In this document: in pieces, positions 4,622-35,944 of the stretch
Layout of the letters: each line of letters starts with the position of its first letter
Numbering within the stretch: the first letter of the stretch is position 1
Virus record (IMG/VR): IMGVR_UViG_3300001605_000009
Source of the DNA: a virus
Lineage: Duplodnaviria; Heunggongvirae; Uroviricota; Caudoviricetes
DNA length: 64,000 nt
Direction: 5' to 3' (one strand)
Program-made: the position numbers and the translations under genes
The notes under the pieces: model-generated
Told to the model about the DNA's origin: nothing
The model's database searches: none
Seen by the model: only the letters and a program-made list of their open reading frames with translations

Positions 4622-4696
4622 GAAAGTAATCTCCTATAAACAAGTTTAGCCGGAGCAGTACTTAAACTGCTCCGGCTTTCACTTTAAAGAGAAAAC

Positions 4697-5416
4697 TTAA
4701 GCAGCCTTCTCAGCCTTAGCAGCCTTAGCTGCACCATCATAGTCTGAGGCCGTTAGTGCACGACGTGTAAGCATTGTCTTAACACCGCGCTCGGTCTTAT
4801 TGATTGCTTCAGCAATCTGCGCAACAGTTAGTGATGGAACATCAATATCAGCTAGTGGATCAGCTGCTGGACCCTTAAGGTCACGCTGCTTTGGCATCGC
4901 ATCAATTTCACCAGCGCGTTGTAGGCTAAGAGCCTTACCGCGTACTGACTGAATTGACTTACCAACTGCTTCAGCAATATCCTCAACAAAGTTGCCCGCC
5001 TTAATCATCTTAAGTACCTGAGCTTCTTCATCCTGTGAGTAGGTCTTTACAGACTCTACCTTCGCTGCTTCCTTGACATGTCCAGTTAGTTCCATTGAGA
5101 GGATCTTACCCTGAATAGCCTTTGGAGTATAGTCACCTGGGAACTTGTCCGCGATTTCTACATATGTGAACTCGCCGGTATTCTGCGTTACAAAGTGGCG
5201 AAGTTCCTCGGTTACTTCATCAGAGAAGGCACGTGGAGCGGCTGAAGCTAGTTCAACATCATATCCTAGCTTACGTAGCTTTGAGGAAATTGAACGTGTG
5301 CTTGTTTCTAGATCTTCTGCAACAGTCGCAACAGTTGCACGGCTTACCGGACGTTCGTCACCTACGAGGTTAACTAGTTGTGCGGTACGATCTTCGGTCC
5401 ATTTAGGTGTAGTCAT
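4697..5416 (-). CDS. multi-repeat helix-turn-helix protein carrying four copies of the IAExLGKSxRSV/I motif
   Basis: The protein contains repeats such as VAEDLETSTRSISSKLRKLG, IAEAVGKSIQSVRGKALSL and IAEAINKTERGVKTML. The same motif defines a paralog family found across the window. Confidence 0.5.
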   Translation of the reverse strand: MTTPKWTEDRTAQLVNLVGDERPVSRATVATVAEDLETSTRSISSKLRKLGYDVELASAAPRAFSDEVTEELRHFVTQNTGEFTYVEIADKFPGDYTPKAIQGKILSMELTGHVKEAAKVESVKTYSQDEEAQVLKMIKAGNFVEDIAEAVGKSIQSVRGKALSLQRAGEIDAMPKQRDLKGPAADPLADIDVPSLTVAQIAEAINKTERGVKTMLTRRALTASDYDGAAKAAKAEKAA

Positions 5417-5419
5417 AAT

Positions 5420-6172
5420 TTAATTATTCTCCAATATAAAAGTTTTAAGGTCGTCTATGACCAATACGCCAGATTCTCTGGCTTTTTGAGTTTTAGTGGT
5501 TTCTTTACCACTTTCGTTTACTAGAATAGTCACGTCCTTAGTAATAGTGGACTTAACTAAATATCCCAGTTTTTCTAGTTCGACTTGGGCTTCTGCCTTA
5601 GTCTTAAAGCTAACTAGCTTACCTGTAATACAGACTGTACCTTTTGTTGCCTGTTTAGCAATCTTGGTAGTTTCAAAGCTAAGATTATGTGGTAGAAATA
5701 AATACCAATCATTTTCACTTAACCAGCTTATAAGGTTGTCTGTCGCTTTTGGACCTAATCCTGCTTCTGAACAGCTACTGACTGTTATAGACTCAATATC
5801 AGAACATACCTTAGATAACTTATCTGTGGCTGTTTTACCAATAAGCGGTATTCCCAGAGCAGGTAGCACATCATTAAGTCTTTTAGATTTAGATTGCTCA
5901 ATCTCGTCTAATAGCTTAGTTGCCATCTTTTCTGAGTTTAACCCTTCGGATATTTCCAATAGAGTTAATTCGTAAATGTCTAGCGGACTAGACAACTGTA
6001 GTTTTTCCACTGCTGCGGGACCCAAGCCTTTAATCTTAAGTGTAGTAGCGAAGTGTTCTACTTGTTTCTTGTTAACTGATCCGCAATCAGAACTGCGGCA
6101 GTAAAGAATATCATTAACGAGAACTAGAGAGCTGTTGCATGATGGACAATTAGTTGGAATGTTTATTTGCAT
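5420..6172 (-). CDS. NAD-dependent DNA ligase, C-terminal portion (zinc finger, helix-hairpin-helix and BRCT domains); a separate ORF from the adenylation domain
   Basis: Cys4 finger CPSCNSSLVLV...YCRSSDC, helix-hairpin-helix region, and a C-terminal BRCT-like segment (GKLVSFKTKAEAQVELEKLGYLV). The -35/-10 promoter and ribosome-binding site lie immediately upstream. Confidence 0.8.
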   Translation of the reverse strand: MQINIPTNCPSCNSSLVLVNDILYCRSSDCGSVNKKQVEHFATTLKIKGLGPAAVEKLQLSSPLDIYELTLLEISEGLNSEKMATKLLDEIEQSKSKRLNDVLPALGIPLIGKTATDKLSKVCSDIESITVSSCSEAGLGPKATDNLISWLSENDWYLFLPHNLSFETTKIAKQATKGTVCITGKLVSFKTKAEAQVELEKLGYLVKSTITKDVTILVNESGKETTKTQKARESGVLVIDDLKTFILENN

Positions 6173-6198
6173 ATTATCTCTCTGCTCTTGATAAAGCC

Positions 6199-6240
6199 AT
6201 TATATCTAAACTTAGGGTCAAAGTCAAGAAGTATTTTTAA
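6199..6240 (-). promoter_or_regulatory. sigma70-type promoter with TTGACT, a 17-nt spacer and TATAAT, upstream of the ligase C-terminal gene
   Basis: The reverse complement of the -35 hexamer is at 6222-6227 and of the -10 hexamer at 6199-6204. A-rich UP-like sequence lies upstream on the minus strand. Confidence 0.6.
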
Positions 6241-6968
6241 CCTAGGTGGCCAGGCACGCTTCTAATTATTTCATCATCTAAGTCGAAAAGCTCTGTGTGT
6301 CCGGGAAACTTTTTTGAAGAGAAGTGTCTTTTATTTGCCCATAATTTGTGTAATGACTGCTCTAAGTTAAATACTTCCTCTAAGGATCCCTTAACTATTT
6401 TCAGTAGTCTATACTCATACCCTTTGAATCCGTTAGCTCGCCTCTTTACATCCTTAAAGTTAGTACCCTTGGTTATACCTATCTTTAAGCACTCTCGTAC
6501 GTTTGTCTCCTTGTTTACTAAAACCACTAAATATAGTATACCTGGAGACTTTGCTATTTCTGGATTCCTACTGAAAAAGGTAGGATTATACTTACCAACT
6601 CTATTGCAGTCAGGACACCCGGATCCGCTCAAAACGTTATTAGGTATAGCTTTCCACTTATGGCCTGCTTTACATTCATGTAGTATAGGAGTTTTAGCTC
6701 CTTTATAGGAGTCTAGTACCTTTATATTAAGCTCTTTAGATAGTAGCTCCTCCGTGTACATTACTGTAGTTTTCTGTAATTTATTACTACAGACGGGGCA
6801 ACCACTACCTCCCAATATACTACTGGGACTAACTGGCCACCTATGCCCGTGAAGACACTCATGGAGTATAGGTGTTTTATTGGTAAGGTATTCTTCTACT
6901 GGCCAGTAGTCTATTTCTTTTCTAAATAGCTCCTCTTCATACTGAGCATGAGTCTTCTTACTAGCCAT
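6237..6968 (-). CDS. GIY-YIG family homing endonuclease with two N-terminal Cys/His zinc-binding repeats, inserted between the two ligase parts
   Basis: Duplicated HECxxGHxW...GSGCPxC motifs are followed by GILYLV...KIGITKG (GIY-YIG). The ORF at 28329..29006 is a paralog. Confidence 0.7.
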   Translation of the reverse strand: MASKKTHAQYEEELFRKEIDYWPVEEYLTNKTPILHECLHGHRWPVSPSSILGGSGCPVCSNKLQKTTVMYTEELLSKELNIKVLDSYKGAKTPILHECKAGHKWKAIPNNVLSGSGCPDCNRVGKYNPTFFSRNPEIAKSPGILYLVVLVNKETNVRECLKIGITKGTNFKDVKRRANGFKGYEYRLLKIVKGSLEEVFNLEQSLHKLWANKRHFSSKKFPGHTELFDLDDEIIRSVPGHLG

Positions 6969-7209
6969 GTAATAGGCGTTGAATCACGTTTAGTGGCTTA
7001 ACTCCAGTAAAACGCTCTACCTCAGTACCTTCAGCACTTAGAACAATAGTAGTTGGCACAGCACGTACCTCATACTTCTTAGTCAGTTCGTCATGAATAT
7101 CAATATCATACCTAATAACCCTAGTAGGGTCTAAGCCCTCTAGTGTCTTCTTATATGTTTGGCACGGCCCACACCAGGTGGCCGAAAATACCAGCAATGT
7201 ATTACTCAT
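6961..7209 (-). CDS. thioredoxin
   Basis: WCGPC active-site motif in an 82-residue protein. Confidence 0.85.
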   Translation of the reverse strand: MSNTLLVFSATWCGPCQTYKKTLEGLDPTRVIRYDIDIHDELTKKYEVRAVPTTIVLSAEGTEVERFTGVKPLNVIQRLLHG

Positions 7210-8152
7210 AGATTCTCCTTAGTACTCGCGGGATAATCTCACCCGCACGAACTACTTCAACAAGACACCCAATTTCTAGGTCTAGGTCTTGGATGTACTT
7301 CATATTATGCAGTGTAGCTCTAGATACCGTAGCTTCACCGATTACTACAGGCTCTAGAAGCGCGACAGGGCTGACAACACCAGAACGTCCTACTTGCCAA
7401 TCAACACCCAGTAGTTTAGTTAATACTCCACCCTTACGCTCTTTGAGAGCAAAGGCACCACGTGGGTGCTTTGACGTGTACCCAGCTTCATAAAACTTCT
7501 CGTAGTCGTCAATACGAAACACTGTACCATCTTGTGGAAACTCATCAAGAAAGTGTGGGTCAGAAGAAAATACTGTATGAAATCCGTAGCAAGAAGCTAG
7601 CTTTTCCATATCCTCTGACCACGTATCATAAACATGTGGTGTAATACCATACGCAATAAACTGTAGCTCACGAGTCTTAAACTCTTCAACTGACTTTAGG
7701 CTTAAAGCACCGGCAGAATAGTTACGAGCGTTGTCAATAGTCTTTGGAGCCACAACCTCACCAGTAATCTGAGTTACTAGCTCATCCATTGAGCTGAACG
7801 GTATTTCCTGAGGGATAAGAGTACGCATATTAGCAGTAATGTCAAGACCTTCCTTGCCATCACCTCGTGTTAGCGATAGGAAGTGCTTACCCTTACAGTA
7901 GTAGTTACCTACAGCTGCTCCATCTAGCTTACGCGTAGTAGCTACTGCACCGCCTAGACTGATTAAAGGTTCATCATCATAGCATTTCTGCAGGCTCCAC
8001 ATAGGAAAAGCGTGAGCAATCCGATCACCTGTGATCGAAGCACCCACGCTTTCATAGCCATGATACTCCGCTAGTTTATCAAATTCTTCGTCGCTGATGA
8101 TTGGATCACCCGCGTAGTATTTAGAACTTGCATAATCTAGAAAAGCTTTCAT
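7202..8152 (-). CDS. NAD-dependent DNA ligase, N-terminal portion (Ia, adenylation and OB domains)
   Basis: The N-terminus YYAGDPIISDEEFDKL matches the LigA Ia domain. The adenylation motif KLDGAAV (KxDG) and an OB-fold segment (GRSGVVSPVALLEPV) are present. Confidence 0.85.
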   Translation of the reverse strand: MKAFLDYASSKYYAGDPIISDEEFDKLAEYHGYESVGASITGDRIAHAFPMWSLQKCYDDEPLISLGGAVATTRKLDGAAVGNYYCKGKHFLSLTRGDGKEGLDITANMRTLIPQEIPFSSMDELVTQITGEVVAPKTIDNARNYSAGALSLKSVEEFKTRELQFIAYGITPHVYDTWSEDMEKLASCYGFHTVFSSDPHFLDEFPQDGTVFRIDDYEKFYEAGYTSKHPRGAFALKERKGGVLTKLLGVDWQVGRSGVVSPVALLEPVVIGEATVSRATLHNMKYIQDLDLEIGCLVEVVRAGEIIPRVLRRIYE

Positions 8153-8475
8153 TGATAAATGTCCTGTAATAGTTCGCTAAAATTAGATATTATCACATCT
8201 TTAGACTCAGCTAAAGACAAGATTTCAACCAACCCAGTGAATAACTCCTTAGAGTTGTTTAAATCTAAAGGCATAGCTACCCCATCTTTAGTGGGGAGCC
8301 ATTCTTCAGAAAAATCCAAGTAGTACTTACGAAGGTGCATATACTCTACACCCCTAAATCTATTGATTGTAAGTCTTACTTGGAAGTCTTCTGTACAGTG
8401 TATTACGCGAGAGTAAATTTCCTCGTCATCGTCCATTATCCCTTCCCTTGAGCGAGACAGATAATGGAACAACAC
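8149..8475 (-). CDS. hypothetical protein
   Basis: ORF only; it overlaps its neighbours by a few nucleotides. Confidence 0.35.
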   Translation of the reverse strand: MLFHYLSRSREGIMDDDEEIYSRVIHCTEDFQVRLTINRFRGVEYMHLRKYYLDFSEEWLPTKDGVAMPLDLNNSKELFTGLVEILSLAESKDVIISNFSELLQDIYQ

Positions 8476-8701
8476 TGGTTACGCTACTAGGTCTAATAAG
8501 CCTATAGGAGTCTGCATCCCAGCAGAATAGCAACACGGTGTCTTCGGTTTCTCTCGCTCTATTTGATTTGGTCTTTACATAATCCGTAGTAAAGTCTAGA
8601 GTACATACATTATACTTTAGTTTCTTAGACTCTAGGCTTCTGTATGTAATGGTGGCGTCGCCGTAATCTTTTACAGCATCAATTAGTTCATCTTTTGTCA
8701 T
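8426..8701 (-). CDS. hypothetical protein
   Basis: ORF only. Confidence 0.3.
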   Translation of the reverse strand: MTKDELIDAVKDYGDATITYRSLESKKLKYNVCTLDFTTDYVKTKSNRARETEDTVLLFCWDADSYRLIRPSSVTSVVPLSVSLKGRDNGR

Positions 8702-8770: not shown

Positions 8771-9136
8771 TTAAGCAAAGAGGCCTGCGAAGTAGATAGC
8801 AGCCTTGCCAGTCAACTTAGAAATAATATCTGAGTCTACTGTTTTACCAGCAGCTTCGATAGCTGCTACTAGTTGTGCTTGTGCGTCTTCCTTACTAACT
8901 CGTGTAGAAGCTGCCTTAGTTGTCTTTGTTGTCTTTGACTGACCACCTGAAGATGGAGCCGCTGGATCCTTCTTAACGTATACGCCAGCCTTGCTGAGAA
9001 TCATACGAACGCCATTAACGCTCTCTTCCATATCTTCAGCAATTTCTGCTACAATATCCATTGAATTTTCTGGCGTTGGCTCAGCCTTTTCATACATAGA
9101 AATAGCTTGTGCCTTACGTTCATCTGTCCATGCCAT
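8771..9136 (-). CDS. small helix-turn-helix protein, member of the window-wide paralog family
   Basis: The motif IAEDMEESVNGVRMILSKAGVY is shared with the ORFs at 36761, 57769, 60752 and 4697. A consensus promoter and a ribosome-binding site lie upstream. Confidence 0.55.
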   Translation of the reverse strand: MAWTDERKAQAISMYEKAEPTPENSMDIVAEIAEDMEESVNGVRMILSKAGVYVKKDPAAPSSGGQSKTTKTTKAASTRVSKEDAQAQLVAAIEAAGKTVDSDIISKLTGKAAIYFAGLFA

Positions 9137-9166: not shown

Positions 9167-9210
9167 ATTATATTAAAATAAAAGCCTAAAGTCAAGAACT
9201 ATTTTGACTT
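9167..9210 (-). promoter_or_regulatory. sigma70 promoter with TTGACT, a 17-nt spacer and TATAAT, carrying the conserved AAAATAGTTCTTGACT upstream motif
   Basis: The minus strand reads aaaatagttcTTGACTttaggcttttattttaaTATAAT. This motif recurs upstream of many minus-strand genes. Confidence 0.65.
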
Positions 9211-9215
9211 TAGGC

Positions 9216-9292
9216 TGGCGAGGGTGCTCGGATTCGAACCGAGATTTGTGGGGTTGGAGTCCACCGTGTTAAACCATTGTCACTACACCGAC
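9216..9292 (-). tRNA. tRNA-like gene, possibly Trp (CCA anticodon), with two acceptor-stem mismatches
   Basis: It has a T-arm (CTCGG-TTCGAAT-CCGAG), an anticodon stem-loop with CCA at positions 34-36, and a 3' CCA end. The 5' acceptor strand GTCGGTG pairs imperfectly with the 3' strand CACCCTC. Confidence 0.4.
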
Positions 9293-9295
9293 GTA

Positions 9296-9508
9296 TTAGT
9301 TGTAGAGGTCTCGTGCATCAGCTTCATTATTGAATACTGCGCAACCACAATACCTCATAGTGTGCCTACGGAAATGCTTATCAAAATAAGCATTATGACT
9401 TGCTAGGTCTTCGCAAGCCTCTTTCAAAGTTTCACCCTTACCGTAGCCCAGGTGACAGGCTGTGTAGTCTCGGCGTGGGTCGCCCTCACACCAGATTTCC
9501 ATTAACAT
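9296..9508 (-). CDS. hypothetical Cys-rich small protein
   Basis: ORF only. Confidence 0.3.
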   Translation of the reverse strand: MLMEIWCEGDPRRDYTACHLGYGKGETLKEACEDLASHNAYFDKHFRRHTMRYCGCAVFNNEADARDLYN

Positions 9509-9600
9509 GCTACTCTCCTTAGATAAACAGAATAGCGTAAAATAGAATGGAAGTCAAGGATAGAATTAAGTCTAGCCCTATACGAGTTACAATAATTTCT

Positions 9601-9792
9601 TTACTTGGCATCTACACACTCCACATAACTTGTTTGTCCGTCATTCCAGTGCCTAATGACACCAGCTACAATAACAGCGTTGGTAATTAAATACGCCGCT
9701 AATATAGCAGTACGAATATAGGCTACAACATCTGATTCTTTGTTGCACTCAGTAGCCTTATCACCGAGTGCCTTACACCATAAACGCCACAT
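9601..9792 (-). CDS. hypothetical small membrane protein
   Basis: The ORF contains a hydrophobic segment. Confidence 0.3.
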   Translation of the reverse strand: MWRLWCKALGDKATECNKESDVVAYIRTAILAAYLITNAVIVAGVIRHWNDGQTSYVECVDAK

Positions 9793-9808
9793 ATTAATTC
9801 CTTTAAGA

Positions 9809-9882
9809 TGGATGCTCGACTAGGGCTCGAACCTAGATTGCACGGATCAAAACCGCGTTTCCTACCATTAGAAGATCGAGCA
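9809..9882 (-). tRNA. tRNA-Gln (UUG)
   Basis: Manual fold: the acceptor strands TGCTCGA and TCGAGCA pair perfectly, the anticodon loop is TTTTGAT, and the T-arm is CTAGG-TTCGAGC-CCTAG. Confidence 0.75.
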
Positions 9883-9883
9883 A

Positions 9884-9958
9884 TGGTGCTTCCACTCTGA
9901 ATCGAACAGAGATTTTCGGGTTACAAAGCCGAGGTAATAGCCGTTATACTATGGAAGC
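9884..9958 (-). tRNA. tRNA-Thr (UGU)
   Basis: The acceptor strands GCTTCCA and TGGAAGC pair perfectly, the anticodon loop is TTTGTAA, and the T-arm is CTCTG-TTCGATT-CAGAG. Confidence 0.65.
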
Positions 9959-10101
9959 TTGGTGGAAACCCTCACGGATTGGTTTCCTGTACGAGCACTC
10001 CCACGACTATTGGCTGCAGCACAAATAGTGTCTCGTATTAACCCTCACGTATCGGGTTTAATGTCTAGCATTACGACCAGCAGGGGTAGCTAGACTGAAC
10101 G

Positions 10102-10177
10102 TGGTACTCCCAGTAGGATTCGAACCCACGACCAAGCCATCATGAGTGGCCGGCTCTAACCGCTGAGCTATAGGAGC
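10102..10177 (-). tRNA. tRNA with a CAU anticodon (Met, or Ile2 if modified by lysidine)
   Basis: The acceptor stem pairs with G-U wobbles, the D-arm is TAGCTCAGCGGTTAGAGC, the anticodon loop is CTCATGA, and the T-loop is TTCGAAT. Confidence 0.75.
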
Positions 10178-10349
10178 ATTATTCTGGGTCTAAAATGAAA
10201 AGTAGAATAGTTAGTGGCCATACTAAAGACACACCAAGAAGAATCACAAACTGTGTAGACCCAATCTTAATAGGTGAGTCGTATAACATATAAGCTATTA
10301 AGGCTAAAGCTATTCCAAAGTAAATGATTGCTGCTATTTCCATTTTAAC

Positions 10350-10426
10350 CTCTTATACCTGGTGCACCCGGCAGGACTCGAACCTGCAACATACGGAGTA
10401 GAAATCCGATGCTCTGTCCAGTTGAG
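10350..10426 (-). tRNA. tRNA-Arg (UCU)
   Basis: Acceptor strands GCACCCG and CGGGTGC, D-arm GCTCAACTGGACAGAGC, anticodon loop TTTCTAC, and T-arm GCAGG-TTCGAGT-CCTGC. Confidence 0.7.
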
Positions 10427-10442
10427 CTACGGGTGCTAATTA

Positions 10443-10904
10443 CTAATGTCTAACGCAGTGATCTGCGGCTGTAGTTGCAGCAAAGCTATCTGGCTTTACT
10501 CGCGCTTGAAGACCAAGACCTCGAACCCATCCAATAGCCTCACTTGTAACTACATTACTAGCGTGACGAGGGTCAGGATTAAAGTCTAGGTGAATTTCGA
10601 GACGACGATCTCCAACTACGTCTTCAATAGCGTAGAATGCCTCTAGAGCAAACTGCACTTCCATCATTAGACGGGGGCGCATCTGACCGTAATCTGGTAG
10701 AGTTACCTTGTTATGAAAGACCTTGCAGCCATTTTTAGAGTTCATATGTAGAATAATAACTGTAGAAAAGTCAGCCTTATTCTTCGTTGAATTTCGTAAT
10801 GAGTCACATCCAATATAAATACTTGATGCCTTACTTGATTTTAGAATTTCTTCTCTGGCATCAGCCCACATAACTATCCGTTTCAATTGACTCAATAGAC
10901 TCAA
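10443..10904 (-). CDS. hypothetical protein
   Basis: ORF only. Confidence 0.35.
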   Translation of the reverse strand: MSLLSQLKRIVMWADAREEILKSSKASSIYIGCDSLRNSTKNKADFSTVIILHMNSKNGCKVFHNKVTLPDYGQMRPRLMMEVQFALEAFYAIEDVVGDRRLEIHLDFNPDPRHASNVVTSEAIGWVRGLGLQARVKPDSFAATTAADHCVRH

Positions 10905-11115
10905 ACTTAATCGAGCGCCACTGGTTCTGCTCCAAGTCCCATACTGTTATAGTAAACTGGGACGGAGCGTATTTAATATTAGGGTTCAACTCAAGAACAG
11001 GCAAAAACATACTGTTCAATGTGCAATGCATTTCACGCTTTTCGCCATTCACTTTAGTGAATACGATAGTGGCTGTTTCTGTTTTCAGAAGCTCGCGAAG
11101 TTCGTTAATATCCAT
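10861..11115 (-). CDS. hypothetical protein
   Basis: ORF preceded by a consensus promoter at 11142-11185. Confidence 0.4.
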   Translation of the reverse strand: MDINELRELLKTETATIVFTKVNGEKREMHCTLNSMFLPVLELNPNIKYAPSQFTITVWDLEQNQWRSIKFESIESIETDSYVG

Positions 11116-11141
11116 GTGCCTTTTGCCTTTCTGTTGATACT

Positions 11142-11185
11142 CTTATATCAAAATAGAGGTACTAAGTCAAGAACTATTTTCGACC
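11142..11185 (-). promoter_or_regulatory. sigma70 promoter with TTGACT, a 17-nt spacer and TATAAG
   Basis: The minus strand reads aaaatagttcTTGACTtagtacctctattttgaTATAAG, with a ribosome-binding site and ATG downstream. Confidence 0.6.
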
Positions 11186-11351
11186 TTCATTACTAGAGAG
11201 AAGTTCTCATATCGCCTGAGAAACTCTAGCTCACGAGACATAGTTTCCTCAATCATTGGTGAGAATACTGGAAAACTGTATGTAGAACTAATTGGGTTCC
11301 CACGAAGTGGGAAAGTGCTGGTGATAGTTACTTTCATGGTAACTCCTAAAA

Positions 11352-11442
11352 TGGTAGTCCTGTGTGGATTCGAACCACAATTAACCCCTAATCTGGGCTC
11401 CGGGATATAAATCCGGTCGTTTTACCATTAAACTACAGGACC
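11352..11442 (-). tRNA. tRNA-like gene, 91 nt, with a long extra arm; the anticodon may be UAU (Ile) but the fold is unusual
   Basis: The acceptor strands GGTCCTG and CAGGACT pair, and the D-arm and T-arm (TGTGG-TTCGAAT-CCACA) are canonical. The anticodon region is ccgga-TTTATAT-cccgg, and roughly 20 nt lie between the anticodon arm and the T arm. Confidence 0.5.
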
Positions 11443-11444
11443 GT

Positions 11445-11530
11445 TGGTGGGGAAGACGGGACTCGAACCCGCACGGACAAAGTCCACAAGATTTTAAGTC
11501 TCGCGCGGCTACCAATTTCACCACAACCCC
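11445..11530 (-). tRNA. tRNA-Leu (UAA), type II, with U-U mismatches in the acceptor stem
   Basis: The D-loop AAATTGGTAG and anticodon loop CTTAAAA are Leu-like, a variable arm and T-loop TTCGAGT are present, and the 3' end is CCA. The acceptor strands GGGGTTG and CTTCCCC give 5 of 7 pairs. Confidence 0.5.
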
Positions 11531-11625: not shown

Positions 11626-14600
11626 TTAAAAGAATGCTAGAAATGCTCCTAACTTCTTTATAGCGCCAATAATAGACCCTGTTATATAACTGATTGATAA
11701 ATAATTAGGACTTGTTCCTGTAAAAGAAAGACCCGTATTATTCCCTCCATTCGTACTATTAGCTCCTACATTCCACGCTGTTGACTTTTTAAGAATCGCC
11801 GGAGTAGTGTTCGTAGAAGTTATAGTTACTAAGGAACTTGAATCCCCACTTATATTGAAACTACTAAATGTCTGAGTTGATCCACCTTCAAATTTTATAG
11901 TAGTAGGTTTCACTGTATTACTCATAGTATCAAAAGTATTGTTACCATAGATTGACAGAGTGCTTCTTTGTAACGTGGTAGAAGATGGAGTAACAGTAAA
12001 GTTATTATATGTCTGGTCACCTCCATAGAATTGGTATTCTACTGGTATTGAATAGGTAGTACATATGATATTGGCCGTGCCTTTATCTAATGTAAGATTA
12101 GTGGGATCGCTTATATCCCAACCAAATATTGGTATTAATGCAGAATACGCGCTCACATCTATTAAATATTGAAGATATGTAAGGTTATATGGTACTATAG
12201 TCCAATTACCAGACCCCATTATCAGGGCTCTACTTGAAGTGTAACTACTACTAAATTCTGGTACAGTAACATCATATCCATTAGCATTAAATGTTCCGGC
12301 CTTTAATATCATCCCTCCAGTAGTGTTCAGAGTAGCGCCATAAGAATAATAGGCGAGATTTATAGCACTACCTAGCTGATAAATTGCTCCTGGACAGTTG
12401 AATGTTAGAAACGCGCCACAAGCATTACTTGTAGTGTTGATAGTTAATGTCTTAGTTCCAGAGGTTGCCAAGAAATTAACAAAGCCAGTCAGAACAGCAG
12501 AGTTGTTAGTCATATTACCGTAGATATTAACTTTTGATGCCATATTGTACGTACCAGTGAATCCTGTATCGTTATAGTTACGAATAGAAGGTACTCCACC
12601 TGTACTAAATGAGATTATATCTGAACCAGCAGTAATATTTATATCAAAACAGGTAGTCTCTGTCATTCCAGGAGCAAATATAGTTCTAGTCCCCGTGCTT
12701 CCAGAATAAGTCAAATTCACAGTTGGTATACCTGTGTAATTAAAGTTCCCACCACTTACCTCCATATAAAGTATAGTACCGTTATTACCAGTAATATTTA
12801 TAGCACTACTACCGAATGCAATAGCTGGAAAGTCATATATAGAGGCAGATACAGCAGGCTGTAGCGAAGAAACTGTAGCAGTAAATCCATTCAAGTCTAG
12901 TGTACCAGTATAAATAGATACAGTACCACTACAAGTCAGCGCTGAGCCTAGCTTAGTTGTACCAGAATTAGTGTTATATACATTTATACCTGTAGGCCAT
13001 GTAACTCCTGCAGAAGTAATAGTTTGAGTAGCCCCACTTTTATTAAATGTTACTACTCCTGTTCCTGTTATTGTTAGTCCAGAGTATAGAGTGACATTTC
13101 CATATATATCAGGAGATGTTGTACCAATAGCTAAAGTAGAAGCTGTTGTTCTAGAAGAGTAATTTAAAGTACCAATGTTCCAGTTGGCATTTATTGTAAG
13201 CGTACTTGCAACACCCGTATTAGTGAATGTTGCAGTATCTTGAGCTAATGGGAAGTTAGCTACTGCAGGAGTACCCGCTGCTGTTGTTGCCCAAGCTGTT
13301 GCAGTCCAAAGAGAATTACCCAATAAGTTCCAATACACAGTTTTAGGAGTAGATGTGGTAATATTAGTGTTGTTTCCACAATCTCCAAGCCTTATTCCTG
13401 TCCAAGTACCTGCAGCTCCTGCAGCTGTAATATCCCTGAAGTCTACATCAGTAAGGGCAGATATTGCATTTGCTGTTATTGTTCTAGCAGTACCTTGAGT
13501 ATTAGATTGTAGGAAAGTTCTATAGATTGCTGACGTGCCGGCCCCAATAGTAAGTGTACCGTTGACAGTTTGATTACCTCCACCAAATATGACTTGACTA
13601 ATACCCACACTTCCAGTACGTCCAGCTATATTTAAATTATTGAAAGTATTAACTCCAGTAATATTAGCAGTGTTAATTGCTGTATTATTAAATGTTACAT
13701 TATAGTATGTTTTATCCCCGCCAGTGAAGGTAGGAGTAGTAGAAGTTAATACTATTGTAGAGGTACCGGCATTTATAGTATTTGTAGACAGTGCTTGCCA
13801 TGCCGTTCCAGTAGCGGATAGTGTCACTGTAGAACCATTTAAGTTTATAGTGGCATACTCACTTGCATTAATAGTTGTTGCGGATACAGAGTAGTTAGAA
13901 GTGTCAAGATTTCCTACAAGATTTATAGCATTAGTTGAGGTAAATGCTCCGCCCAATAACACTGTAGTTGATGGGCTGTAGGATGCTATCGCGATAGGAA
14001 ATGATTTTCCTGCAGTATTTAAGGTTTGTGTTTTGGTATACCCCAAAAAGGCTAACTGTCCTGTAAGTGTTGTTGGCGTTACACCCGTTCCTAGTATAAA
14101 ATCACTGTATACAAATTGAGTACTACTACCAAAAGCTAGCGTCATTACGGTTGTTCTGGCAGACATATTGATAGTACCCGTATTATATAGACCATCAAAG
14201 GTAACAGTAGTTGCTGCGCCAGTATTATCAAATATAGCAGTATCTTGAGCCAATGGAAAGTTATTTACAGCAGGAGTTCCACCAGAACTGGTGGCCCAAC
14301 CATTAGCAGACCAATTTACAGTTCCAGTTAGATTCCAATAGACAGTTTTAGAGGACTCAAATGTAATATTAGAGTTATTCCCACAATCACCAAGTCTGGT
14401 ACCAGACCAATTTCCTGAGGTACCTGCTACTACAATATCTCTGAAGTCAACATCTACTAATGAACTAATCGCAGCAACAGTTAGCGTGATTTGGGTATCA
14501 AACACCTGACTAAGTAGCCAAGTTCTGTATGCTGGACCAGTTCCTGCTCCTATATTAAGAGTTCCATTAATAGTCTGATTAGCATTAAATTGTAAATAAT

Positions 14601-17600
14601 TAACCCCAGTAACTGTTCTTCCAGCAATCGTAAGATTGTTAAATACATTGCTACCTCTAATACTATTAACGACTGATTCAGCGGAACCACCTGAGGTAAA
14701 ACTTACATTATAATAGGTTTGTTCGCCTCCATTAAATGATTGACTGGCAGCACTCAAGTTAATCGTTGATGTTCCACTTGATAAAGTAAGACCTGTTGGT
14801 ACCGTAATATCCCACCCACCAGAAGATAAAGTAATAGTTGAAGACCCCAAAGTCAACGATCTGGTATTACTATTACTACTAGAAACAGATCCTGCAGTAA
14901 CATTAAAGTTACTAGTGCTGAACGAGCCGTTAGTTAGCGTTAATGTGTATGTACTTAAATTGATAGCGTCAGCAAGAGTCCACTCTCCGCCAATACCATT
15001 GAATGTAATTGGACACCCCAATGCTTTACCACTAGAAGTGATTATTTTACCGGCAGATGTTGATGCAAATGTTCTCACACCTGCGCCAGCAGTAACAGTC
15101 ATGCCTGTTGATAACGTCAGATTACCGTAGATTGTAATGGCACTATTTGGCCAAGTACCCGCAAAACCAGTAAATACTAGATTTCTTACGTTTCCAGTAA
15201 CAGTAGTAGAGCTTGTTCCTGCGGTGATATTAAACGATACACTGTTAGATTCAGATGGAGAACCCGCGATAATAGTTCTAGCTGTTGCAGTAGCGTTAGT
15301 TACGTTTACAATAGGAGTTCCTGTTACTGTCATATTGTATACGTTTGTAGCATCCCATACTGTACCAGTCCCATTAAGAGTTAAGGAGCCATAATTAAAA
15401 GCTAAGGTTCTTGCGCTGTTTGAATTTGTTATAAAAGCAGGACATGAATGATTATTTCCATTCAAATCTAAATATCCAGCCGCAAGTCTTATAGTACTAG
15501 TAGAAGTAGTACCAGTTGATAACTGACCAGTAAGAGTCCATCGTCCAAACAGTCCATTAAAAACTATAGGGAATCCTAGGGTTTTTCCATTTGGATTAAT
15601 AGTATTACCAGTATATGTTGATAAGAATGAAACAGTATTCGTACCAGCAGCCACTGTCATTCCAGTTGATACAGTAAGACTTCCATAAATTCCTAACGCT
15701 ACATTAGTCCATGAGCCTGCAAATCCAGTGAAGTCTAGGTTTTTTATTCTGTTATTAGCAGTGAACGTAACAGGGCCAGTTCCTGCAGTGATATTAAAGG
15801 AAAAAGCATAATCTTCCGACCATACTCCGGCAGAGATCGTCCTAGTAAGAGATGTAACGGCAGTGACATCTACTCTTCTTAGGCCAGAAGTAGTTAAATT
15901 AGTTACTGTAGCAGTATTCCAAATAGTACCAGTTCCCTCTAGTTTTAAATACCCAGTAGACCCAAACATAATAGACCTAGTATTAGAATTACTAGATGAA
16001 AAGGAATTTAGAGATAAAGAGTACTCATTTAAATCAAGTGTACCATTAGTTAGCGTAAGCGACCCCATTCCTGTATTAGTAACATTTACTTTTATTGTAC
16101 TGTTGTAGGCGTCTATATTAGTAATATTTGTAGGTTGATAGCCTACTAATTGGATTTTATTTACTCCGATATAATTTAAAGTACAGCCGATACCCGCAGA
16201 AACACCCATCATATTATTATTACTTCCACACCAGTAAGTAGTAGTCGTGCCATAGGATAAGGTAAAAAGAGTCGATCTAGCGGTGGTATCATAAGTACCA
16301 ATATACCAATTCTGATCAAGAGTAAGAGTACTCCCAGCACTATTGTCATCCACAATACACGTATCTTGTACTAATGGAAAATTAGCAGCATCTGGGGTGC
16401 CACCAGAAGTCAATGCCCAGCCTGGTGAAGACCAGTTACTAACTCCTGGACGGTTCCAATATACGGTTTTTGGCGCTGCAAATGTGATGAGAGAGTTTCC
16501 TCCTGCGTCACCTAAACTAGTGCCGGACCATGTAGCTGTCCCAGATCCTGTAATGTAGCGAAAGTCTACATTCGAAAGGTCCGTTGAAGCTGCGGTAATA
16601 ACTCTAGGGCTGCCTGTTTGGTTACTTTGTAGTAATGTTCGATTTAGTAGTTCAGTACTAGATACAGTTAATGTACTAGTAATTACTACATCACCACCTA
16701 AATATGTAGGCGTTACTCCTACTGAGTCCCTGGCTGGGATATTTAAATTAATAAAAGTTATGGTAGGAGAAGGACTATTAACTGAACTACCAATACTATA
16801 TCCAAATGTATTTGCAGTAAAATTAACAGTACCAAAACTCTGCCCATCTGGAAGAAAGTTTACAATAGCCGCAGTATGCGTACAATTAATAGTAGATGAA
16901 ATACCACTAAAAGTTAGCTCTGTTGAGTTAAAAGTTATAGGTGACTGCCCATTTAGTGTTACAGTAGAAGTACCTAATGTTATTGATCTAATGTTAGAAT
17001 TACTAGACGAAATACTGCCCGCAGTTACATTATAGTTACCTGTGTCAAACGAACCCTTAGTGACTGTGATTTGATTCGTTCCAATATTCAACGCATCTTG
17101 CAGAGTCCACCCACCACCAACACCATCAAAAGTAGCAGGGCCGTTTAATGTGACGCCATTAGATGTAATGGTCTTACCTGTAGAAGTGGCTGCGAATGTA
17201 AGTGATGTATACGCGGCTACTGTTTGACCAGTTCCAAGAGTCAGGTTTCCATATATAGTACCCGCTGTTGGAATCCATGCTCCACTAAACCCAGTGAAGT
17301 CTAGATTCTTAAAGGTACTCGTGCTGGTTGATACGTTTCCTGTTCCGGCTGTGACATTTACAGATGCTTCAGAGAGTGCACCTGTGGTAATTGTTCTGGC
17401 TGTTGCTGATGAGTTAGTCAGATTGACTGTAGGGAACCCCGATATAGCTATAGAAGAGGTCGTATTGAATACTGTGCCAGTTCCCGATAATGATACAATA
17501 CCCGATGTACCAAAATTTAGTGTTCTAGCAGACAGACCAGTAGAAACGAATAATCCCGTTGTGAGTGTGAAGTTATTCAGGTTTAATGTACCAGAGTTTA

Positions 17601-25003: not shown

Positions 25004-25397
25004 GGTACTTTTCCTTATTATCAGAAGAGAAATAAATACGCTCTTCTTCTTCAGAGAGAGGTCTACTCATTGGAGTATTCTTCTCGTCCCTCCAACACAG
25101 ATGGTTGGTATTCTCAAAAGGTATAAGCCAAGGTGTCATTAATTTCTCCGTGTAAGTGCGGCGGGTTCTGTTTCTAGGTTCCGCCAGACCCAAGAAGAAT
25201 CAAGCTACTAGAGCTAGACCTTCAAATGCTGAGTTATCGTTAGCATTTACTTTTTGTGGCTCTTTGCCAGTCAATAGTCTCGGCGTTCCCTATTACACGA
25301 AAATCGATCCCTGGTCGCCCCCATCATAGAATATCGGACTGTGTAGGTACCAATACACGAGACACTGATAAACGGTCAGGCTCTTCCCAATATTCTA

Positions 25398-25425
25398 TGG
25401 TGGAGGCGGCGGGAATTGAACCCGC
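25398..25425 (-). ncRNA. tRNA/tmRNA 3'-end-like element (T-arm, acceptor 3' strand and CCA) with no matching 5' half
   Basis: The minus strand reads GACGCGGG-TTCAATT-CCCGCCGCCTCCACCA. This matches the 3' end of bacterial tmRNA and tRNA closely. No complementary GGAGGCG was found within plausible distance. Confidence 0.4.
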
Positions 25426-25454
25426 GTCTTTTCGTCTTTATTGTCGGCTGTCAG

Positions 25455-25497
25455 CGACTATATACTCGTTATAACAAAAGTTACAACAAAAGTCAAG
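25455..25497 (-). promoter_or_regulatory. sigma70 promoter (TTGACT, 17-nt spacer, TATAAC) firing into the tRNA/tmRNA-like fragment
   Basis: The minus strand reads aaaaatatttcTTGACTtttgttgtaacttttgtTATAAC, about 45 nt upstream of the fragment. Confidence 0.5.
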
Positions 25498-25732
25498 AAA
25501 TATTTTTCAAGCGTTCGGCCTTAGCACGAAGATGCTCAGCTGGGGACATTCCGTAGTCCTGATGGTTAACAGAAATATTCGCTAGTACAAATCCAAGGTC
25601 TTTTCGCTCCTGATAGAACTGCTCACGCATCTTTCGCTTACGCTCTAGCTTCTGCTCACGAGTTTCTAGATTTGGGAAGTTGACTTGTCCGTTGGACTTT
25701 TGCTTCTGTACGACCTGTTCTGCTTCCTGCAC
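25493..25732 (-). CDS. hypothetical basic protein
   Basis: ORF with the promoter at 25830-25870 upstream. Confidence 0.4.
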   Translation of the reverse strand: MQEAEQVVQKQKSNGQVNFPNLETREQKLERKRKMREQFYQERKDLGFVLANISVNHQDYGMSPAEHLRAKAERLKNIS

Positions 25733-28328: not shown

Positions 28329-29006
28329 TTAATCCTTGTCTAAATTTAGTATGTCTTCTTTAAATAGCTCTGTGTTACCCTTTGACTTTAAAAAGTCTTT
28401 TACATATATTCTTTTGTCTTTGAACTTCTTTAGTATTTCTGTTTCTTTATCTAAAGCGTCCTGTCCTCTTATAAAGAACTCTCCAAATAATATTTTAATA
28501 TCCCTATCTTTGTCCTGTCTAAACCTCTGCTCAATAGATTTGTTTGTAATACCAACCTTATAATACTCATTATCTATTTTAATATAGTACAATATAGCAG
28601 ATTTAGTAGTATCAAAAGTATAGGAGGCCGGAGAATTAAACAGAGAACAAATTGGGCACCCACTACCTGATAGTATATTTGTAGGTGTTGAACTCCACTC
28701 ATGTCCGTCTGTGCACTTGTGAAGTAAATGTGTGTATGCATTTATATAAGGGTCAAGAACCTCTATTCCTCTGGTCTTTAATTGTAATTGATATGTTGAA
28801 TGCTCTTTTTTAACTCCGCCTTTGCAAGTAGGACAACCCTTACCTTGCAGTACACTATTAGGCCTAGCTAACCACGTGTGGCCTGCTATACACTCATGCA
28901 TAATAGGGGTACTACTATTAATATAAGTCTGTATGGGGTAAGCATCTGCTTCTATATTTAGAAGTCTATTTTCGTATTCTTCGTGTGTTAGTGTCTTCTT
29001 AGCCAT
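28329..29006 (-). CDS. GIY-YIG homing endonuclease with dual zinc-binding N-terminal repeats (paralog of the ORF at 6237..6968)
   Basis: HECIAGHTW...GKGCPTC, HKCTDGHEW...GSGCPIC, and then AILYYIKIDNEYYKVGIT. Confidence 0.7.
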   Translation of the reverse strand: MAKKTLTHEEYENRLLNIEADAYPIQTYINSSTPIMHECIAGHTWLARPNSVLQGKGCPTCKGGVKKEHSTYQLQLKTRGIEVLDPYINAYTHLLHKCTDGHEWSSTPTNILSGSGCPICSLFNSPASYTFDTTKSAILYYIKIDNEYYKVGITNKSIEQRFRQDKDRDIKILFGEFFIRGQDALDKETEILKKFKDKRIYVKDFLKSKGNTELFKEDILNLDKD

Positions 29007-34375: not shown

Positions 34376-34376
34376 A

Positions 34377-34727: not shown

Positions 34728-34756
34728 CGTGAAGGATCAAGACTTAAATTAGGAAC

Positions 34757-35269: not shown

Positions 35270-35278
35270 AATATTATT

Positions 35279-35944
35279 TTACCAGTTGGGTACTTTGTTA
35301 GATTTCTTTAGATTTTCTTCTACGGTTAAATACTGTAGGTTATTCTCTACATGTAGTCCACAACTATTTTTAGCGTTAAGAGGGTATATATGATCTACAT
35401 GATACCCTTCTGGACACTCATTATATATTTCTTTTAGCTTCTTAATATCTGCCCATGGAGCTAGGGCTTGTTTTAGTTGGGCCCTTCTTCTGGCATTCTT
35501 TTCTCTACCATGTATTTTCCAGTATTCCTGATGATACTCTTTATTATTTTGATAATTATTCTTATTATATGAAGATTTACAATCTGTGCAGTACCTGTCT
35601 ATACCGTCATGCTCTAGGGCAGATTTAGTGAAAGTCTCTCTTAAAGAGAATTCACTACATCCGGAGCACTTCTTGTAGTCTGACTGTCTTACTAGCCAGG
35701 ATACCCAGGTACCCTCCCCTCCTTGTAGCTTTACCTCAGGAAATAGCCTCTTAACTAATCTATTAAAGGTCTGTTCAGACCTACCAAGACTTTTTATAGC
35801 TTTTGGACCTGTTCCATAAGTAAATAGGGCGTCTACCACTTCTCCAAAACAAATAGGTGGTTTTTCACCTCTTTTGTTAATGACTATAGTGTACTGCCCT
35901 ATGTTTAGGTTTTTATAAATTGATTCTTTTACTTTCTGTTCCAT
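35279..35944 (-). CDS. HNH homing endonuclease, inserted within the tRNA cluster
   Basis: HNH motif GYHVDHIYPLNAKNSCGLHVENNLQYLTVEENLKKSNK. N-terminal DNA-binding region. The promoter at 35953-35997 lies upstream. Confidence 0.75.
   Translation of the reverse strand: MEQKVKESIYKNLNIGQYTIVINKRGEKPPICFGEVVDALFTYGTGPKAIKSLGRSEQTFNRLVKRLFPEVKLQGGEGTWVSWLVRQSDYKKCSGCSEFSLRETFTKSALEHDGIDRYCTDCKSSYNKNNYQNNKEYHQEYWKIHGREKNARRRAQLKQALAPWADIKKLKEIYNECPEGYHVDHIYPLNAKNSCGLHVENNLQYLTVEENLKKSNKVPNW

What the first reader, a model, noticed from the sequence alone, without database searches (positions are those of the whole stretch)
5420..8152. NAD-dependent DNA ligase split into two ORFs by a GIY-YIG homing endonuclease gene and a thioredoxin gene
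The Ia, adenylation and OB domains (7202-8152) are separated from the zinc-finger, helix-hairpin-helix and BRCT domains (5420-6172) by a GIY-YIG endonuclease ORF and a thioredoxin ORF. The C-terminal part has its own consensus promoter and ribosome-binding site. Either the ligase functions as two subunits, or this is a homing-endonuclease gene insertion or an intein-less split gene. The same homing-endonuclease family has a second copy at 28329-29006, and an HNH endonuclease sits in the tRNA cluster, which shows active mobile-element traffic.
Basis: partly seen in the sequence, partly recalled or inferred. Interest (0 to 1): 0.55.

Follow-up and report, generated by a model that had tools for sequence, protein, structure and literature searches.

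The report
T5-type two-subunit ligase with inserted endonuclease
The ligase is the two-gene NAD-dependent DNA ligase shared by all T5-like phages, so the split is old and already known; the thioredoxin and endonuclease genes were inserted later into the promoter spacer between the two genes, and the endonuclease gene is visibly being swapped between near-identical phages.

Summary
On the minus strand lie ligA (7202-8152), a CGPC thioredoxin (6961-7209), a 243-aa zinc-finger/T5orf172 nuclease gene (6237-6968), a TTGACT-17-TATAAT promoter (6227-6199) and ligB (5420-6172).

- The break falls at the OB-fold/zinc-finger junction. It is identical in T5 (ligA/ligB, reported in 2005), My1, Aeromonas and Vibrio T5-like phages.
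- All 78 informative environmental relatives are split. In 70 of them the two genes are 55-120 nt apart, which is just a conserved strong promoter plus ribosome-binding site.
- A two-chain ligase of this type from a Providencia T5-like phage is in the PDB (9HU3/9I5I).
- The best 120 LigB homologues are all 217-260 aa. None is fused.

Redoxin and T5orf172 genes in the spacer are confined to one environmental clade. The T5orf172 gene behaves as a mobile or recombining element. A contig that is 97-100% identical to the window on both sides carries an allele only 56% identical in protein, with sharp boundaries. Identity of this gene is also uncorrelated with identity of its flanks.

Verdict: a new member of known kinds (split T5-type ligase; T5orf172 homing-endonuclease-like gene beside replisome genes). 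Interest is low to moderate.

The parts
7202..8152 (-). ligA: N-terminal ligase subunit (domain Ia, adenylation/NTase domain with K75xDG, OB fold)
   Evidence: Pfam adenylation and OB domains. PHROG 3359 at 1.8e-94, and positions 13-381 of the 656-position full-length LigA PHROG 3869. PDB 9hu3_A at 7.7e-61. Its C-terminus is the same as in six genera.
6961..7209 (-). Thioredoxin (82 aa, WCGPC). Its start overlaps the ligA stop by 8 nt (ATGAGTAA).
   Evidence: Pfam PF00085 at 44.5 bits; PHROG 22; sequence. It is 96% identical to the L089 copy but only 47-51% identical to those of L006 and L007.
6237..6968 (-). Homing-endonuclease-like gene. Two CapR/DUF4379 treble-clef zinc fingers (about aa 1-124, nt 6597-6968) are followed by a T5orf172 (GIY-YIG superfamily) domain (aa 125-243, nt 6240-6596). 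Its start overlaps the thioredoxin stop by 8 nt.
6232..6898 (-). Tract replaced relative to the near-identical contig L089. Nucleotide identity here is 33-72%, against 93-100% in the 60-nt bins immediately on either side and 97-100% in most of the rest. It covers the endonuclease ORF minus its first ~70 nt and ends at the stop codon / promoter UP region.
   Evidence: Sliding identity and boundary alignments. Protein identities: ligA 94%, thioredoxin 96%, T5orf172 56%, ligB 98%, D5 100%.
6199..6227 (-). Sigma-70-type promoter for ligB (TTGACT-17-TATAAT, preceded by an A-rich tract), positionally equivalent to T5 promoters P-K28a/b
   Evidence: Scan result of 11 of 12 positions. The same promoter, at 11/12 or better, sits 22-33 nt before ligB in 77 of 85 loci. 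T5 annotates promoters between ligA and ligB.
5420..6172 (-). ligB: C-terminal ligase subunit (Cys4 zinc finger C9/C12/C25/C30, HhH, BRCT)
   Evidence: PDB 9hu3_B 'DNA ligase subunit B' at 1.3e-27, and E. coli LigA residues 402-664. PHROG 3498 at 3.3e-58, and positions 388-650 of the full-length profile. Invariant cysteines.
7530..7610 (-). Short divergent patch inside ligA relative to L089 (about 62% nt identity, many amino-acid changes in a variable NTase surface segment). It could be a small conversion tract or a target-site variant.
   Evidence: Its meaning was not established.
28329..29006 (-). Paralogous zinc-finger/T5orf172 (MUG113-like) gene, 225 aa, 35% identical to the copy in the ligase spacer
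   Evidence: BLASTP 8e-43; Pfam DUF4379/CapR; PHROG 681 at 8.3e-39.
35279..35944 (-). HNH/endonuclease-VII-like ORF between tRNA-Phe and tRNA-Leu
   Evidence: PHROG 1035 'endonuclease VII' at 1.2e-13, plus PHROG 2255 and 144 'HNH endonuclease'. tRNA positions. No Pfam hit.

Best explanation
The window comes from a divergent, environmental T5-like phage (Demerecviridae-type replication module). Its NAD+-dependent DNA ligase is the ancestral two-subunit enzyme of that family.

LigA carries domain Ia, the adenylation domain and the OB fold. LigB carries the zinc finger, HhH and BRCT domains. Each is translated separately, and the two presumably assemble non-covalently to seal nicks. The junction lies in the OB/zinc-finger linker. 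The ancestral spacer is a strong sigma-70 promoter plus ribosome-binding site that starts the ligB-D5-helicase-primase-polymerase transcription unit.

In one environmental clade, a redoxin gene and a T5orf172-domain gene were inserted between the ligA stop codon and that promoter. In this phage they are translationally coupled to ligA through 8-nt ATG/stop overlaps.

The 243-aa protein has the architecture of T5orf172-class homing endonucleases: zinc-finger DNA-binding repeats followed by a GIY-YIG-like nuclease domain. Its gene is exchanged between phages by recombination. The conserved 5' end of the gene and the conserved ligB promoter act as homology arms. This makes the ligA|ligB spacer a boundary of genetic exchange.

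Shown: the anatomy, the breakpoint, the family-wide split, the conserved promoter, the clade-restricted insertion, the allele replacement and the decoupled phylogeny.

Inferred: heterodimer assembly and nick sealing in this phage, nuclease activity, and DNA-break-driven homing.
For: 1. The breakpoint is identical in six genera. LigA ends at ...RAGxIIPxxxxRxYD and LigB begins MxIxIPTxCPSC. It maps to E. coli LigA at about residue 389-393 | 402 and to positions 381 | 388 of the full-length PHROG profile.
2. T5 annotates ligA (T5.116) and ligB (T5.117) 202 bp apart with two promoters between them. My1 and an Aeromonas phage have gaps of about 170-180 bp with no ORF. [quoted passage not shown]
3. 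PDB entries 9hu3 and 9i5i hold chain A 'DNA ligase (NAD+)' and chain B 'DNA ligase subunit B'. Chain B is 100% identical to the LigB of Providencia phages PR1 and PSTCR5.
4. All 78 IMG/VR loci that include both genes have a stop codon within 27 nt of the end of LigA homology. Seventy have spacers of 55-120 nt. A promoter matching at least 11 of 12 positions precedes ligB in 77 of 85 loci.
5. The best 120 LigB homologues (59-98% identity) are 217-260 aa.
6. In a neighbour-joining tree, loci with redoxin plus T5orf172 in the gap form one clade (L006-L011, L021, L031 and the window). Further members L086-L088 carry the gene in the same position.
7. L089 matches the window at 97-100% nt identity in most 60-nt bins on both sides, but its T5orf172 protein is only 56% identical, with sharp boundaries.
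8. Flank identity and T5orf172 C-domain identity are uncorrelated (Spearman 0.11, n=45 pairs). For example, L021/L088 flanks are 77% identical and the domain 42%, while window/L087 flanks are 50% and the domain 62%.
9. ligA and ligB give discordant relationships across the gap. Window-L010 is 83% in ligA and 64% in ligB; window-L006 is 75% and 82%.
10. Published work describes T5orf172 genes as a GIY-YIG subfamily of homing endonuclease genes. They carry CapR-type zinc-finger repeats, are abundant in T5-like phages, sit next to replisome genes and undergo domain swapping.
Against: - No biochemical data exist for this phage's LigA/LigB, and I found no paper describing the 9HU3/9I5I structures.
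- The T5orf172 domain lacks the second Tyr of the canonical GIY-YIG motif. It has an invariant Lys (K162) in that position.
- No empty-site allele was found among near-identical genomes. What is shown is replacement of one allele by another, not invasion of an empty site.
- The tree is a simple neighbour-joining tree of two proteins with no support values.
Confidence: 0.85

Rival explanations
1. The endonuclease gene (with the thioredoxin gene) inserted into a once-continuous ligase gene and created the split. This would be a genes-in-pieces event like mobE in Aeromonas phage Aeh1 nrdA, which I recall from memory and did not check here.
For: - The gene family is regarded as homing endonucleases that settle in or next to essential genes.
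- The spacer is an insertion hot spot. Unrelated ORFs occupy it in Vibrio phages and in L052/L054.
- An ancient event of this type at the root of the family cannot be excluded.
Against: - The same breakpoint occurs without any intervening ORF in T5, My1, an Aeromonas phage and 70 of 78 environmental relatives.
- The gene-bearing loci form one nested clade.
- The inserted genes lie between the ligA stop codon and a promoter that is conserved in gene-less relatives. They entered an existing intergenic spacer.
Confidence: 0.08
2. The T5orf172 gene is no longer a selfish homing endonuclease. It has been domesticated, for example as a DNA-binding regulator of the adjacent ligB promoter or as a nuclease working with the redoxin. 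Its divergence between phages would then reflect diversifying selection plus ordinary recombination.
For: - Intact stand-alone T5orf172-domain ORFs of 121-127 aa, lacking zinc fingers, are kept next to a redoxin gene in at least five divergent lineages: L007, L009, L010, L021 and L031.
- These ORFs form one cluster in the domain tree and keep the invariant residues.
- Domestication has a precedent in this family: CapR of the Vibrio satellite PLE.
- The gene sits directly upstream of a strong promoter.
Against: - The full-length form retains both the zinc-finger DNA-binding modules and the conserved putative catalytic Arg and Glu.
- Clean replacement of just this ORF between 97-100% identical genomes, together with phylogenetic decoupling, is what is expected of a mobile nuclease gene.
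- There was no match to defence-system models.
Confidence: 0.2
3. The two ORFs are an artefact (frameshift or assembly error) or a decaying pseudogene. Alternatively, the halves are joined by an intein or an intron.
For: None beyond the bare fact that a normally single gene appears in two pieces.
Against: - The identical arrangement occurs in at least 7 independent assemblies and in hundreds of phage records.
- Catalytic and structural residues are invariant in both halves.
- The two halves account for positions 13-381 and 388-650 of a 656-position LigA profile. That leaves no room for split-intein halves.
- Rfam finds no group I or II intron in the window.
- In most relatives the spacer is only 55-120 nt and is a promoter.
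Confidence: 0.01

Closest known systems
Bacteriophage T5 split NAD+-dependent DNA ligase, ligA (T5.116) / ligB (T5.117). The same two-chain enzyme from Providencia phage PR1/PSTCR5 is in the PDB as 9HU3/9I5I.
   Same: - Same domain partition: Ia, adenylation and OB in one subunit; zinc finger, HhH and BRCT in the other.
- Same breakpoint, same gene order within the replication module, and a promoter between the two genes.
   Different: - Only 37-45% amino-acid identity to cultured T5-like phages.
- The spacer here is 1029 nt and holds two extra genes, against about 200 nt of promoters in T5.
T5orf172-class homing endonuclease genes with CapR/DUF-type zinc-finger repeats (Barth, Dunham and Seed 2023, PMC10448857)
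   Same: - N-terminal repeated treble-clef zinc fingers followed by a C-terminal T5orf172 domain.
- Multiple paralogues per genome, and a location beside replisome genes.
- Modular exchange of domains, and a position at a boundary of genetic exchange.
   Different: - That paper's main text does not mention a ligase, so this insertion site is not described there.
- Relatives carry a stand-alone nuclease-domain form.
- A redoxin gene travels beside the endonuclease gene.
- No cleavage data exist for this protein.
Genes-in-pieces created by free-standing endonuclease genes in T4-like phages, such as Aeh1 nrdA split by mobE. This is recalled from the literature and was not checked with the tools here.
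   Same: An essential replication or nucleotide-metabolism enzyme is encoded in two pieces that must assemble, with an endonuclease gene lying between the pieces.
   Different: Here the split exists family-wide without any endonuclease gene. The endonuclease gene is therefore a later tenant of the spacer and not the demonstrated cause of the split.

Membership tests
Two-subunit (T5-type) NAD+-dependent DNA ligase | N-terminal subunit with domain Ia, an adenylation domain carrying the KxDG lysine, and an OB fold | tested here: met
   Pfam PF01653 and PF03120. K75, D77 and G78, and the Ia-domain residues Y12, S20, E22 and D25, are invariant. PHROG 3359 at 1.8e-94. 9hu3_A at 7.7e-61.
Two-subunit (T5-type) NAD+-dependent DNA ligase | Separate C-terminal subunit with a Cys4 zinc finger, HhH and BRCT | tested here: met
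   C9, C12, C25 and C30 are invariant. It aligns to E. coli LigA residues 402-664 and to 9hu3_B at 1.3e-27. PHROG 3498 at 3.3e-58. There was no Pfam hit at E 0.01 or better.
Two-subunit (T5-type) NAD+-dependent DNA ligase | Break at the OB/zinc-finger linker, shared with T5 | tested here: met
   Alignments A1 and A2 across six genera. Full-length profile positions 381 | 388.
Two-subunit (T5-type) NAD+-dependent DNA ligase | T5-type replication-module synteny and a promoter between ligA and ligB | tested here: met
   Gene order is PC4-like, ligA, ligB, D5-like, DnaB-like helicase, primase, polymerase.
Two-subunit (T5-type) NAD+-dependent DNA ligase | The subunits associate and seal nicks using NAD+ | not testable with these tools
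   This is inferred from conservation and from the two chains deposited together in PDB entries 9hu3 and 9i5i.
T5orf172-class (GIY-YIG superfamily) homing endonuclease | T5orf172 domain | tested here: met
   PF10544 at 26 bits against a cut-off of 20, E 1.3e-5. PHROG 681 'endonuclease' at 4.5e-39.
T5orf172-class (GIY-YIG superfamily) homing endonuclease | Repeated zinc-finger DNA-binding modules (CapR/DUF4379 type) | tested here: met
   PF14311 at 1.4e-10 and PF21817 at 1.3e-7. There are two H..C..H / C..C units with invariant Cys and His. The model shows two repeated small beta/alpha modules.
T5orf172-class (GIY-YIG superfamily) homing endonuclease | GIY-YIG fold and catalytic residues (Tyr, Tyr, Arg, Glu) | tested here: inconclusive
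T5orf172-class (GIY-YIG superfamily) homing endonuclease | Variable presence and horizontal movement at a fixed site next to conserved genes | tested here: met
   The gene is restricted to one clade. An allele has been replaced between near-identical genomes. Domain identity is uncorrelated with flank identity.
T5orf172-class (GIY-YIG superfamily) homing endonuclease | Site-specific cleavage of the allele lacking the gene, and biased inheritance | not testable with these tools
   This needs cleavage assays and mixed infections.
Intein-mediated or intron-mediated split gene | Intein halves at the junction, or a self-splicing intron between the exons | tested here: not met
   The two ORFs cover profile positions 13-381 and 388-650 with no extra sequence. 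There are no intron families in Rfam. ligA has its own stop codon, and ligB has its own promoter and start codon.
Thioredoxin | Thioredoxin fold match and a CxxC active site | tested here: met
   PF00085 at 44.5 bits; WCGPC in the sequence; PHROG 22.

The most novel reading that the evidence does not exclude
The ligA|ligB junction may be an ancient, long-lived homing site. On this reading, the family-wide split of the T5-type ligase was itself created by an ancestral endonuclease-gene insertion at the OB/zinc-finger linker. Most lineages later lost the endonuclease gene and kept only the promoter. The environmental clade seen here would then preserve or re-enact that state. It includes a zinc-finger-less T5orf172 domain gene plus a redoxin gene, which may have been domesticated to act at the ligB promoter or together with the ligase.
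Probability: 0.12. Interest if true: 0.55.

Novelty: new member of a known kind. Interest (0 to 1): 0.3.

Why it matters
The headline claim, a ligase split by a homing endonuclease, would have been a fresh genes-in-pieces case. It is not one, and knowing this prevents a mis-annotation: the split is the normal state of T5-like phage ligases.

What remains useful is a clean natural example of endonuclease-gene turnover. Two phage genomes that are 97-100% identical in the flanking DNA differ by replacement of one endonuclease ORF, with the recombination junctions mapped to within tens of bases.

There is also a set of alleles at a single locus: empty, stand-alone nuclease domain, zinc-finger fusion, and double. 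These could be used to work out target recognition and domain shuffling in the poorly characterised T5orf172 nucleases. They also illustrate how such genes mark recombination boundaries between essential genes.

Tried and rejected
- Megablast of 5000-8600 against the phage collection found no match.
- Pfam gave no hit for LigB or for the HNH-like ORF. PHROGs and PDB sequence searches resolved both.
- Literature searches for a paper on 9HU3/9I5I or on 'split/heterodimeric DNA ligase' found only the 2006 LigN paper that cites T5.
- PADLOC gave no defence-system match for the endonuclease, its paralogue, the thioredoxin or the stand-alone domain.
- The idea that the thioredoxin sits in the spacer throughout T5-like phages was rejected. 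The spacer ORFs of Vibrio phages VspSw_1 and pVp-1 are unrelated: one is crAss001_48-like and the others have no family.
- Simple vertical inheritance of the T5orf172 gene within its clade was rejected, because identity is uncorrelated with the flanks and because of the L089 allele swap.
- Intein, intron, frameshift and pseudogene readings were rejected.
Full report
**1. What is in the sequence**

- ORF 7202-8152 (316 aa) matches the NAD-ligase adenylation and OB-fold Pfam domains. It keeps the KxDG lysine (K75) and the Ia-domain motif.
- ORF 6961-7209 (82 aa) is a thioredoxin with a WCGPC site.
- ORF 6237-6968 (243 aa) has two DUF4379/CapR treble-clef zinc fingers and a C-terminal T5orf172 domain. 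It also matches PHROG 681 'endonuclease'.
- ORF 5420-6172 (250 aa) has no Pfam hit. It aligns to E. coli LigA residues 402-664, covering the zinc finger, HhH and BRCT domains, and to PHROG 3498.

The ligA stop overlaps the thioredoxin start by 8 nt. The thioredoxin stop overlaps the endonuclease start in the same way.

The 64-nt gap before ligB contains TTGACT-17-TATAAT, an 11-of-12 match, followed by a purine-rich GAGAGA.

The same haplotype is present in at least seven independent assemblies, so it is not an assembly artefact.

**2. The split is ancestral and already known**

Protein searches of the phage collection return hundreds of T5-like phages (Demerecviridae) that annotate 'NAD-dependent DNA ligase subunit A' and 'subunit B'.

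- In T5, ligA (T5.116) and ligB (T5.117) are 202 bp apart, with two annotated promoters (P-K28b and P-K28a) between them.
- Pectobacterium phage My1 and an Aeromonas phage have gaps of about 170-180 bp with no ORF.
- Two Vibrio phages have two unrelated small ORFs in the gap.

Alignments across six genera show the same ends. LigA stops after ...RAGxIIPxxxxRxYD, and LigB starts MxIxIPTxCPSC. Against intact LigA the break falls at about residue 389-393 | 402 of the E. coli enzyme. Against a 656-position full-length phage LigA profile it falls at positions 381 | 388. This is the OB/zinc-finger linker, and it leaves no room for intein halves.

The PDB holds entries 9HU3 and 9I5I with chain A 'DNA ligase (NAD+)' and chain B 'DNA ligase subunit B'. 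Chain B is 100% identical to the LigB of Providencia T5-like phages PR1 and PSTCR5. I found no paper describing these entries.

**3. Environmental relatives**

A scan of IMG/VR with a LigB alignment returned 80 loci at 53-82% identity.

- All 78 loci that include the ligA 3' end have a stop codon within 27 nt of the end of LigA homology.
- Seventy have a spacer of 55-120 nt (median over all 78 loci 82 nt), two have 290 nt and six have 501-1698 nt.
- The short spacer is essentially AAAAAATAnTTCTTGACa-17-TATAAT plus a ribosome-binding site. This promoter matches at least 11 of 12 positions in 77 of 85 loci, at a fixed 22-33 nt from the ligB start.

ligB opens a transcription unit.

The 120 best LigB homologues in the 5.8-billion-protein collection (59-98% identity) are all 217-260 aa. 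No fused form appears among close relatives.

**4. The inserted genes are a clade-specific addition**

In a neighbour-joining tree of LigB plus D5, the window groups with L006-L011, L021 and L031. These are precisely the loci with a redoxin gene and a T5orf172 gene in the spacer. The sister group has bare spacers.

Three more homologues of the 243-aa protein, found by protein search, also sit between ligA and ligB.

The contents of the spacer vary:

| Spacer contents | Loci |
|---|---|
| Thioredoxin + zinc-finger/T5orf172 fusion | window, L006, L086, L088, L089 |
| Fusion without thioredoxin | L087 |
| Thioredoxin + stand-alone 121-123-aa T5orf172 domain ORF | L007, L010 |
| Stand-alone domain ORF; contig starts inside the spacer | L009 |
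| Full-length paralogue + glutaredoxin-like gene + stand-alone domain | L021, L031 |

The stand-alone domains form one cluster nested among the fused forms, and they keep the conserved residues.

**5. The T5orf172 gene is being exchanged**

Across 45 locus pairs, identity of the T5orf172 C-domain is uncorrelated with identity of the flanking LigB plus D5 (Spearman 0.11). The extremes are:

| Locus pair | Flank identity | Domain identity |
|---|---|---|
| L021 / L088 | 77% | 42% |
| L006 / L007 | 85% | 52% |
| window / L087 | 50% | 62% |

The clearest case is contig L089.

- In 60-nt windows it is 97-100% identical to the window over most of 5.5 kb. Protein identities are LigA 94%, thioredoxin 96%, LigB 98% and D5 100%.
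- Its T5orf172 protein is only 56% identical.
- The divergent tract runs from about 6898, roughly 70 nt inside the gene after the conserved ...EIDYWP, to about 6232, at the stop codon and the A-rich tract of the ligB promoter. Identity returns sharply to 97-100% on both sides.
- L089's allele is 82% identical to that of L006, which is in line with their flanks. The window's allele is therefore the replaced one.
- A second small divergent patch lies in ligA at about 7530-7610. Its meaning is unknown.

ligA and ligB also give discordant relationships across the spacer. Window-L010 is 83% in ligA and 64% in ligB, while window-L006 is 75% and 82%.

This matches the published picture of T5orf172 homing endonuclease genes. 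They are described as a GIY-YIG subfamily with CapR-type zinc-finger repeats, abundant in T5-like phages, located beside replisome genes, prone to domain swapping, and positioned at boundaries of genetic exchange.

**6. How sure is 'GIY-YIG homing endonuclease'?**

- The domain assignment passes Pfam's cut-off.
- In a 21-sequence alignment Y146, R177 and E203 are invariant. The Tyr of the 'YIG' motif is an invariant Lys (K162).

Nuclease activity and break-driven homing are therefore inferred, not shown. A domesticated role remains possible, especially for the zinc-finger-less form.

**7. Mechanism proposed**

- LigA and LigB are made separately and assemble into the ligase (inferred).
- ligA, the thioredoxin gene and the endonuclease gene are translationally coupled on the upstream transcript. 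ligB is transcribed from its own conserved promoter and possibly also by read-through, since no terminator was predicted between them.
- The endonuclease gene persists by occupying a spacer flanked by two essential, conserved genes. It spreads or is replaced by recombination, using the conserved 5' end of the gene and the promoter as homology. A break made by the nuclease in the competing allele is assumed but not demonstrated.
- The thioredoxin is most simply an accessory redox protein, for example for ribonucleotide reduction, carried in the same spacer. Its function was not tested here.

**8.

- The second copy at 28329-29006 is a real paralogue, 35% identical with the same architecture.
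- The ORF at 35279-35944 in the tRNA cluster is HNH/endonuclease-VII-like by PHROGs.
- 'Active mobile-element traffic' is supported for the ligase spacer by the L089 comparison.

**9. Verdict**

The causal interpretation is not supported, and the two-subunit reading is supported.

The feature is a new, divergent member of two known kinds. The modest added value is the well-resolved allele replacement, the series of spacer states at one locus, and the stand-alone T5orf172 domain plus redoxin pair.

Noticed in passing
window 25157-25500 (- strand): A permuted (two-piece) tmRNA gene inside this phage. ARAGORN calls it with tag peptide ANDNSAFEGLALVA. Rfam RF04321 tmRNA_permuted scores 90.8 bits against a gathering score of 47, and RF01849 alpha_tmRNA scores 79.7 against 50, both full-length. 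A phage-borne permuted tmRNA of alphaproteobacterial type may hint at the host and deserves its own follow-up.
   Followed up: partly
L007:462-833, L009:75-446, L010:5567-5932, L021:5540-5908, L031:5570-5953: Intact stand-alone T5orf172-domain ORFs (121-127 aa, no zinc fingers) sit directly upstream of the ligB promoter. A thioredoxin- or glutaredoxin-like gene lies beside them wherever the contig extends upstream. They are conserved across divergent relatives and cluster together in the domain tree. This may be a domesticated nuclease domain.
   Followed up: partly
L021:4262-5143 and L031:4545-5207: These relatives carry a second, full-length zinc-finger/T5orf172 paralogue right after ligA. 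It is more like window copy 2 and has up to three zinc-finger repeats. The ligase spacer therefore holds two nuclease-family genes in these phages.
   Followed up: partly
window 7202-8152 versus 5420-6172, compared with L006 and L010: ligA and ligB have discordant nearest relatives. ligA is 83% identical to L010 and 75% to L006, while ligB is 64% identical to L010 and 82% to L006. The spacer is therefore a recombination boundary between the two ligase subunits.
   Followed up: partly
window 11626-18600 (- strand): A 2324-aa ORF, rich in Thr, Ser, Asn and Gly, with long internal repeats ('...NFTGFSG...IYGNLTLS...'). It lies next to the first tRNA cluster and is probably a fibre or adhesin-like structural protein.
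   Followed up: no
window 9216-11530 and 33349-36467: Two tRNA clusters: 14 tRNAs by ARAGORN and 2 more by Rfam. They include an 86-91-nt 'tRNA-Ile(tat)' at 11352-11442. An RNaseH-like ORF (PF04308) at 10443-10904 sits among the tRNAs.
   Followed up: no
window 9167-9216 (- strand): A second 11-of-12 promoter (TTGACT-17-TATAAT at 9195..9167) is embedded in a 13-bp-stem terminator-like hairpin (9216..9183), just after tRNA-Trp and upstream of the Phage_T5_A2-like ORF 8771-9136. A strong 12-bp-stem bidirectional hairpin also lies at 4648-4677 between the D5-like and DnaB-like genes.
   Followed up: no
L008:756-1120: In this relative the stand-alone T5orf172 ORF runs into ligB. The ligB promoter is missing and the called ligB ORF starts at residue 33. 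This is either a deletion variant or an assembly problem.
   Followed up: no
window 8149-8475 (- strand): A PC4-like (PF02229, transcriptional coactivator p15) ssDNA-binding-type ORF has its stop overlapping the ligA start by 4 nt. It is conserved at this position in all relatives examined.
   Followed up: no
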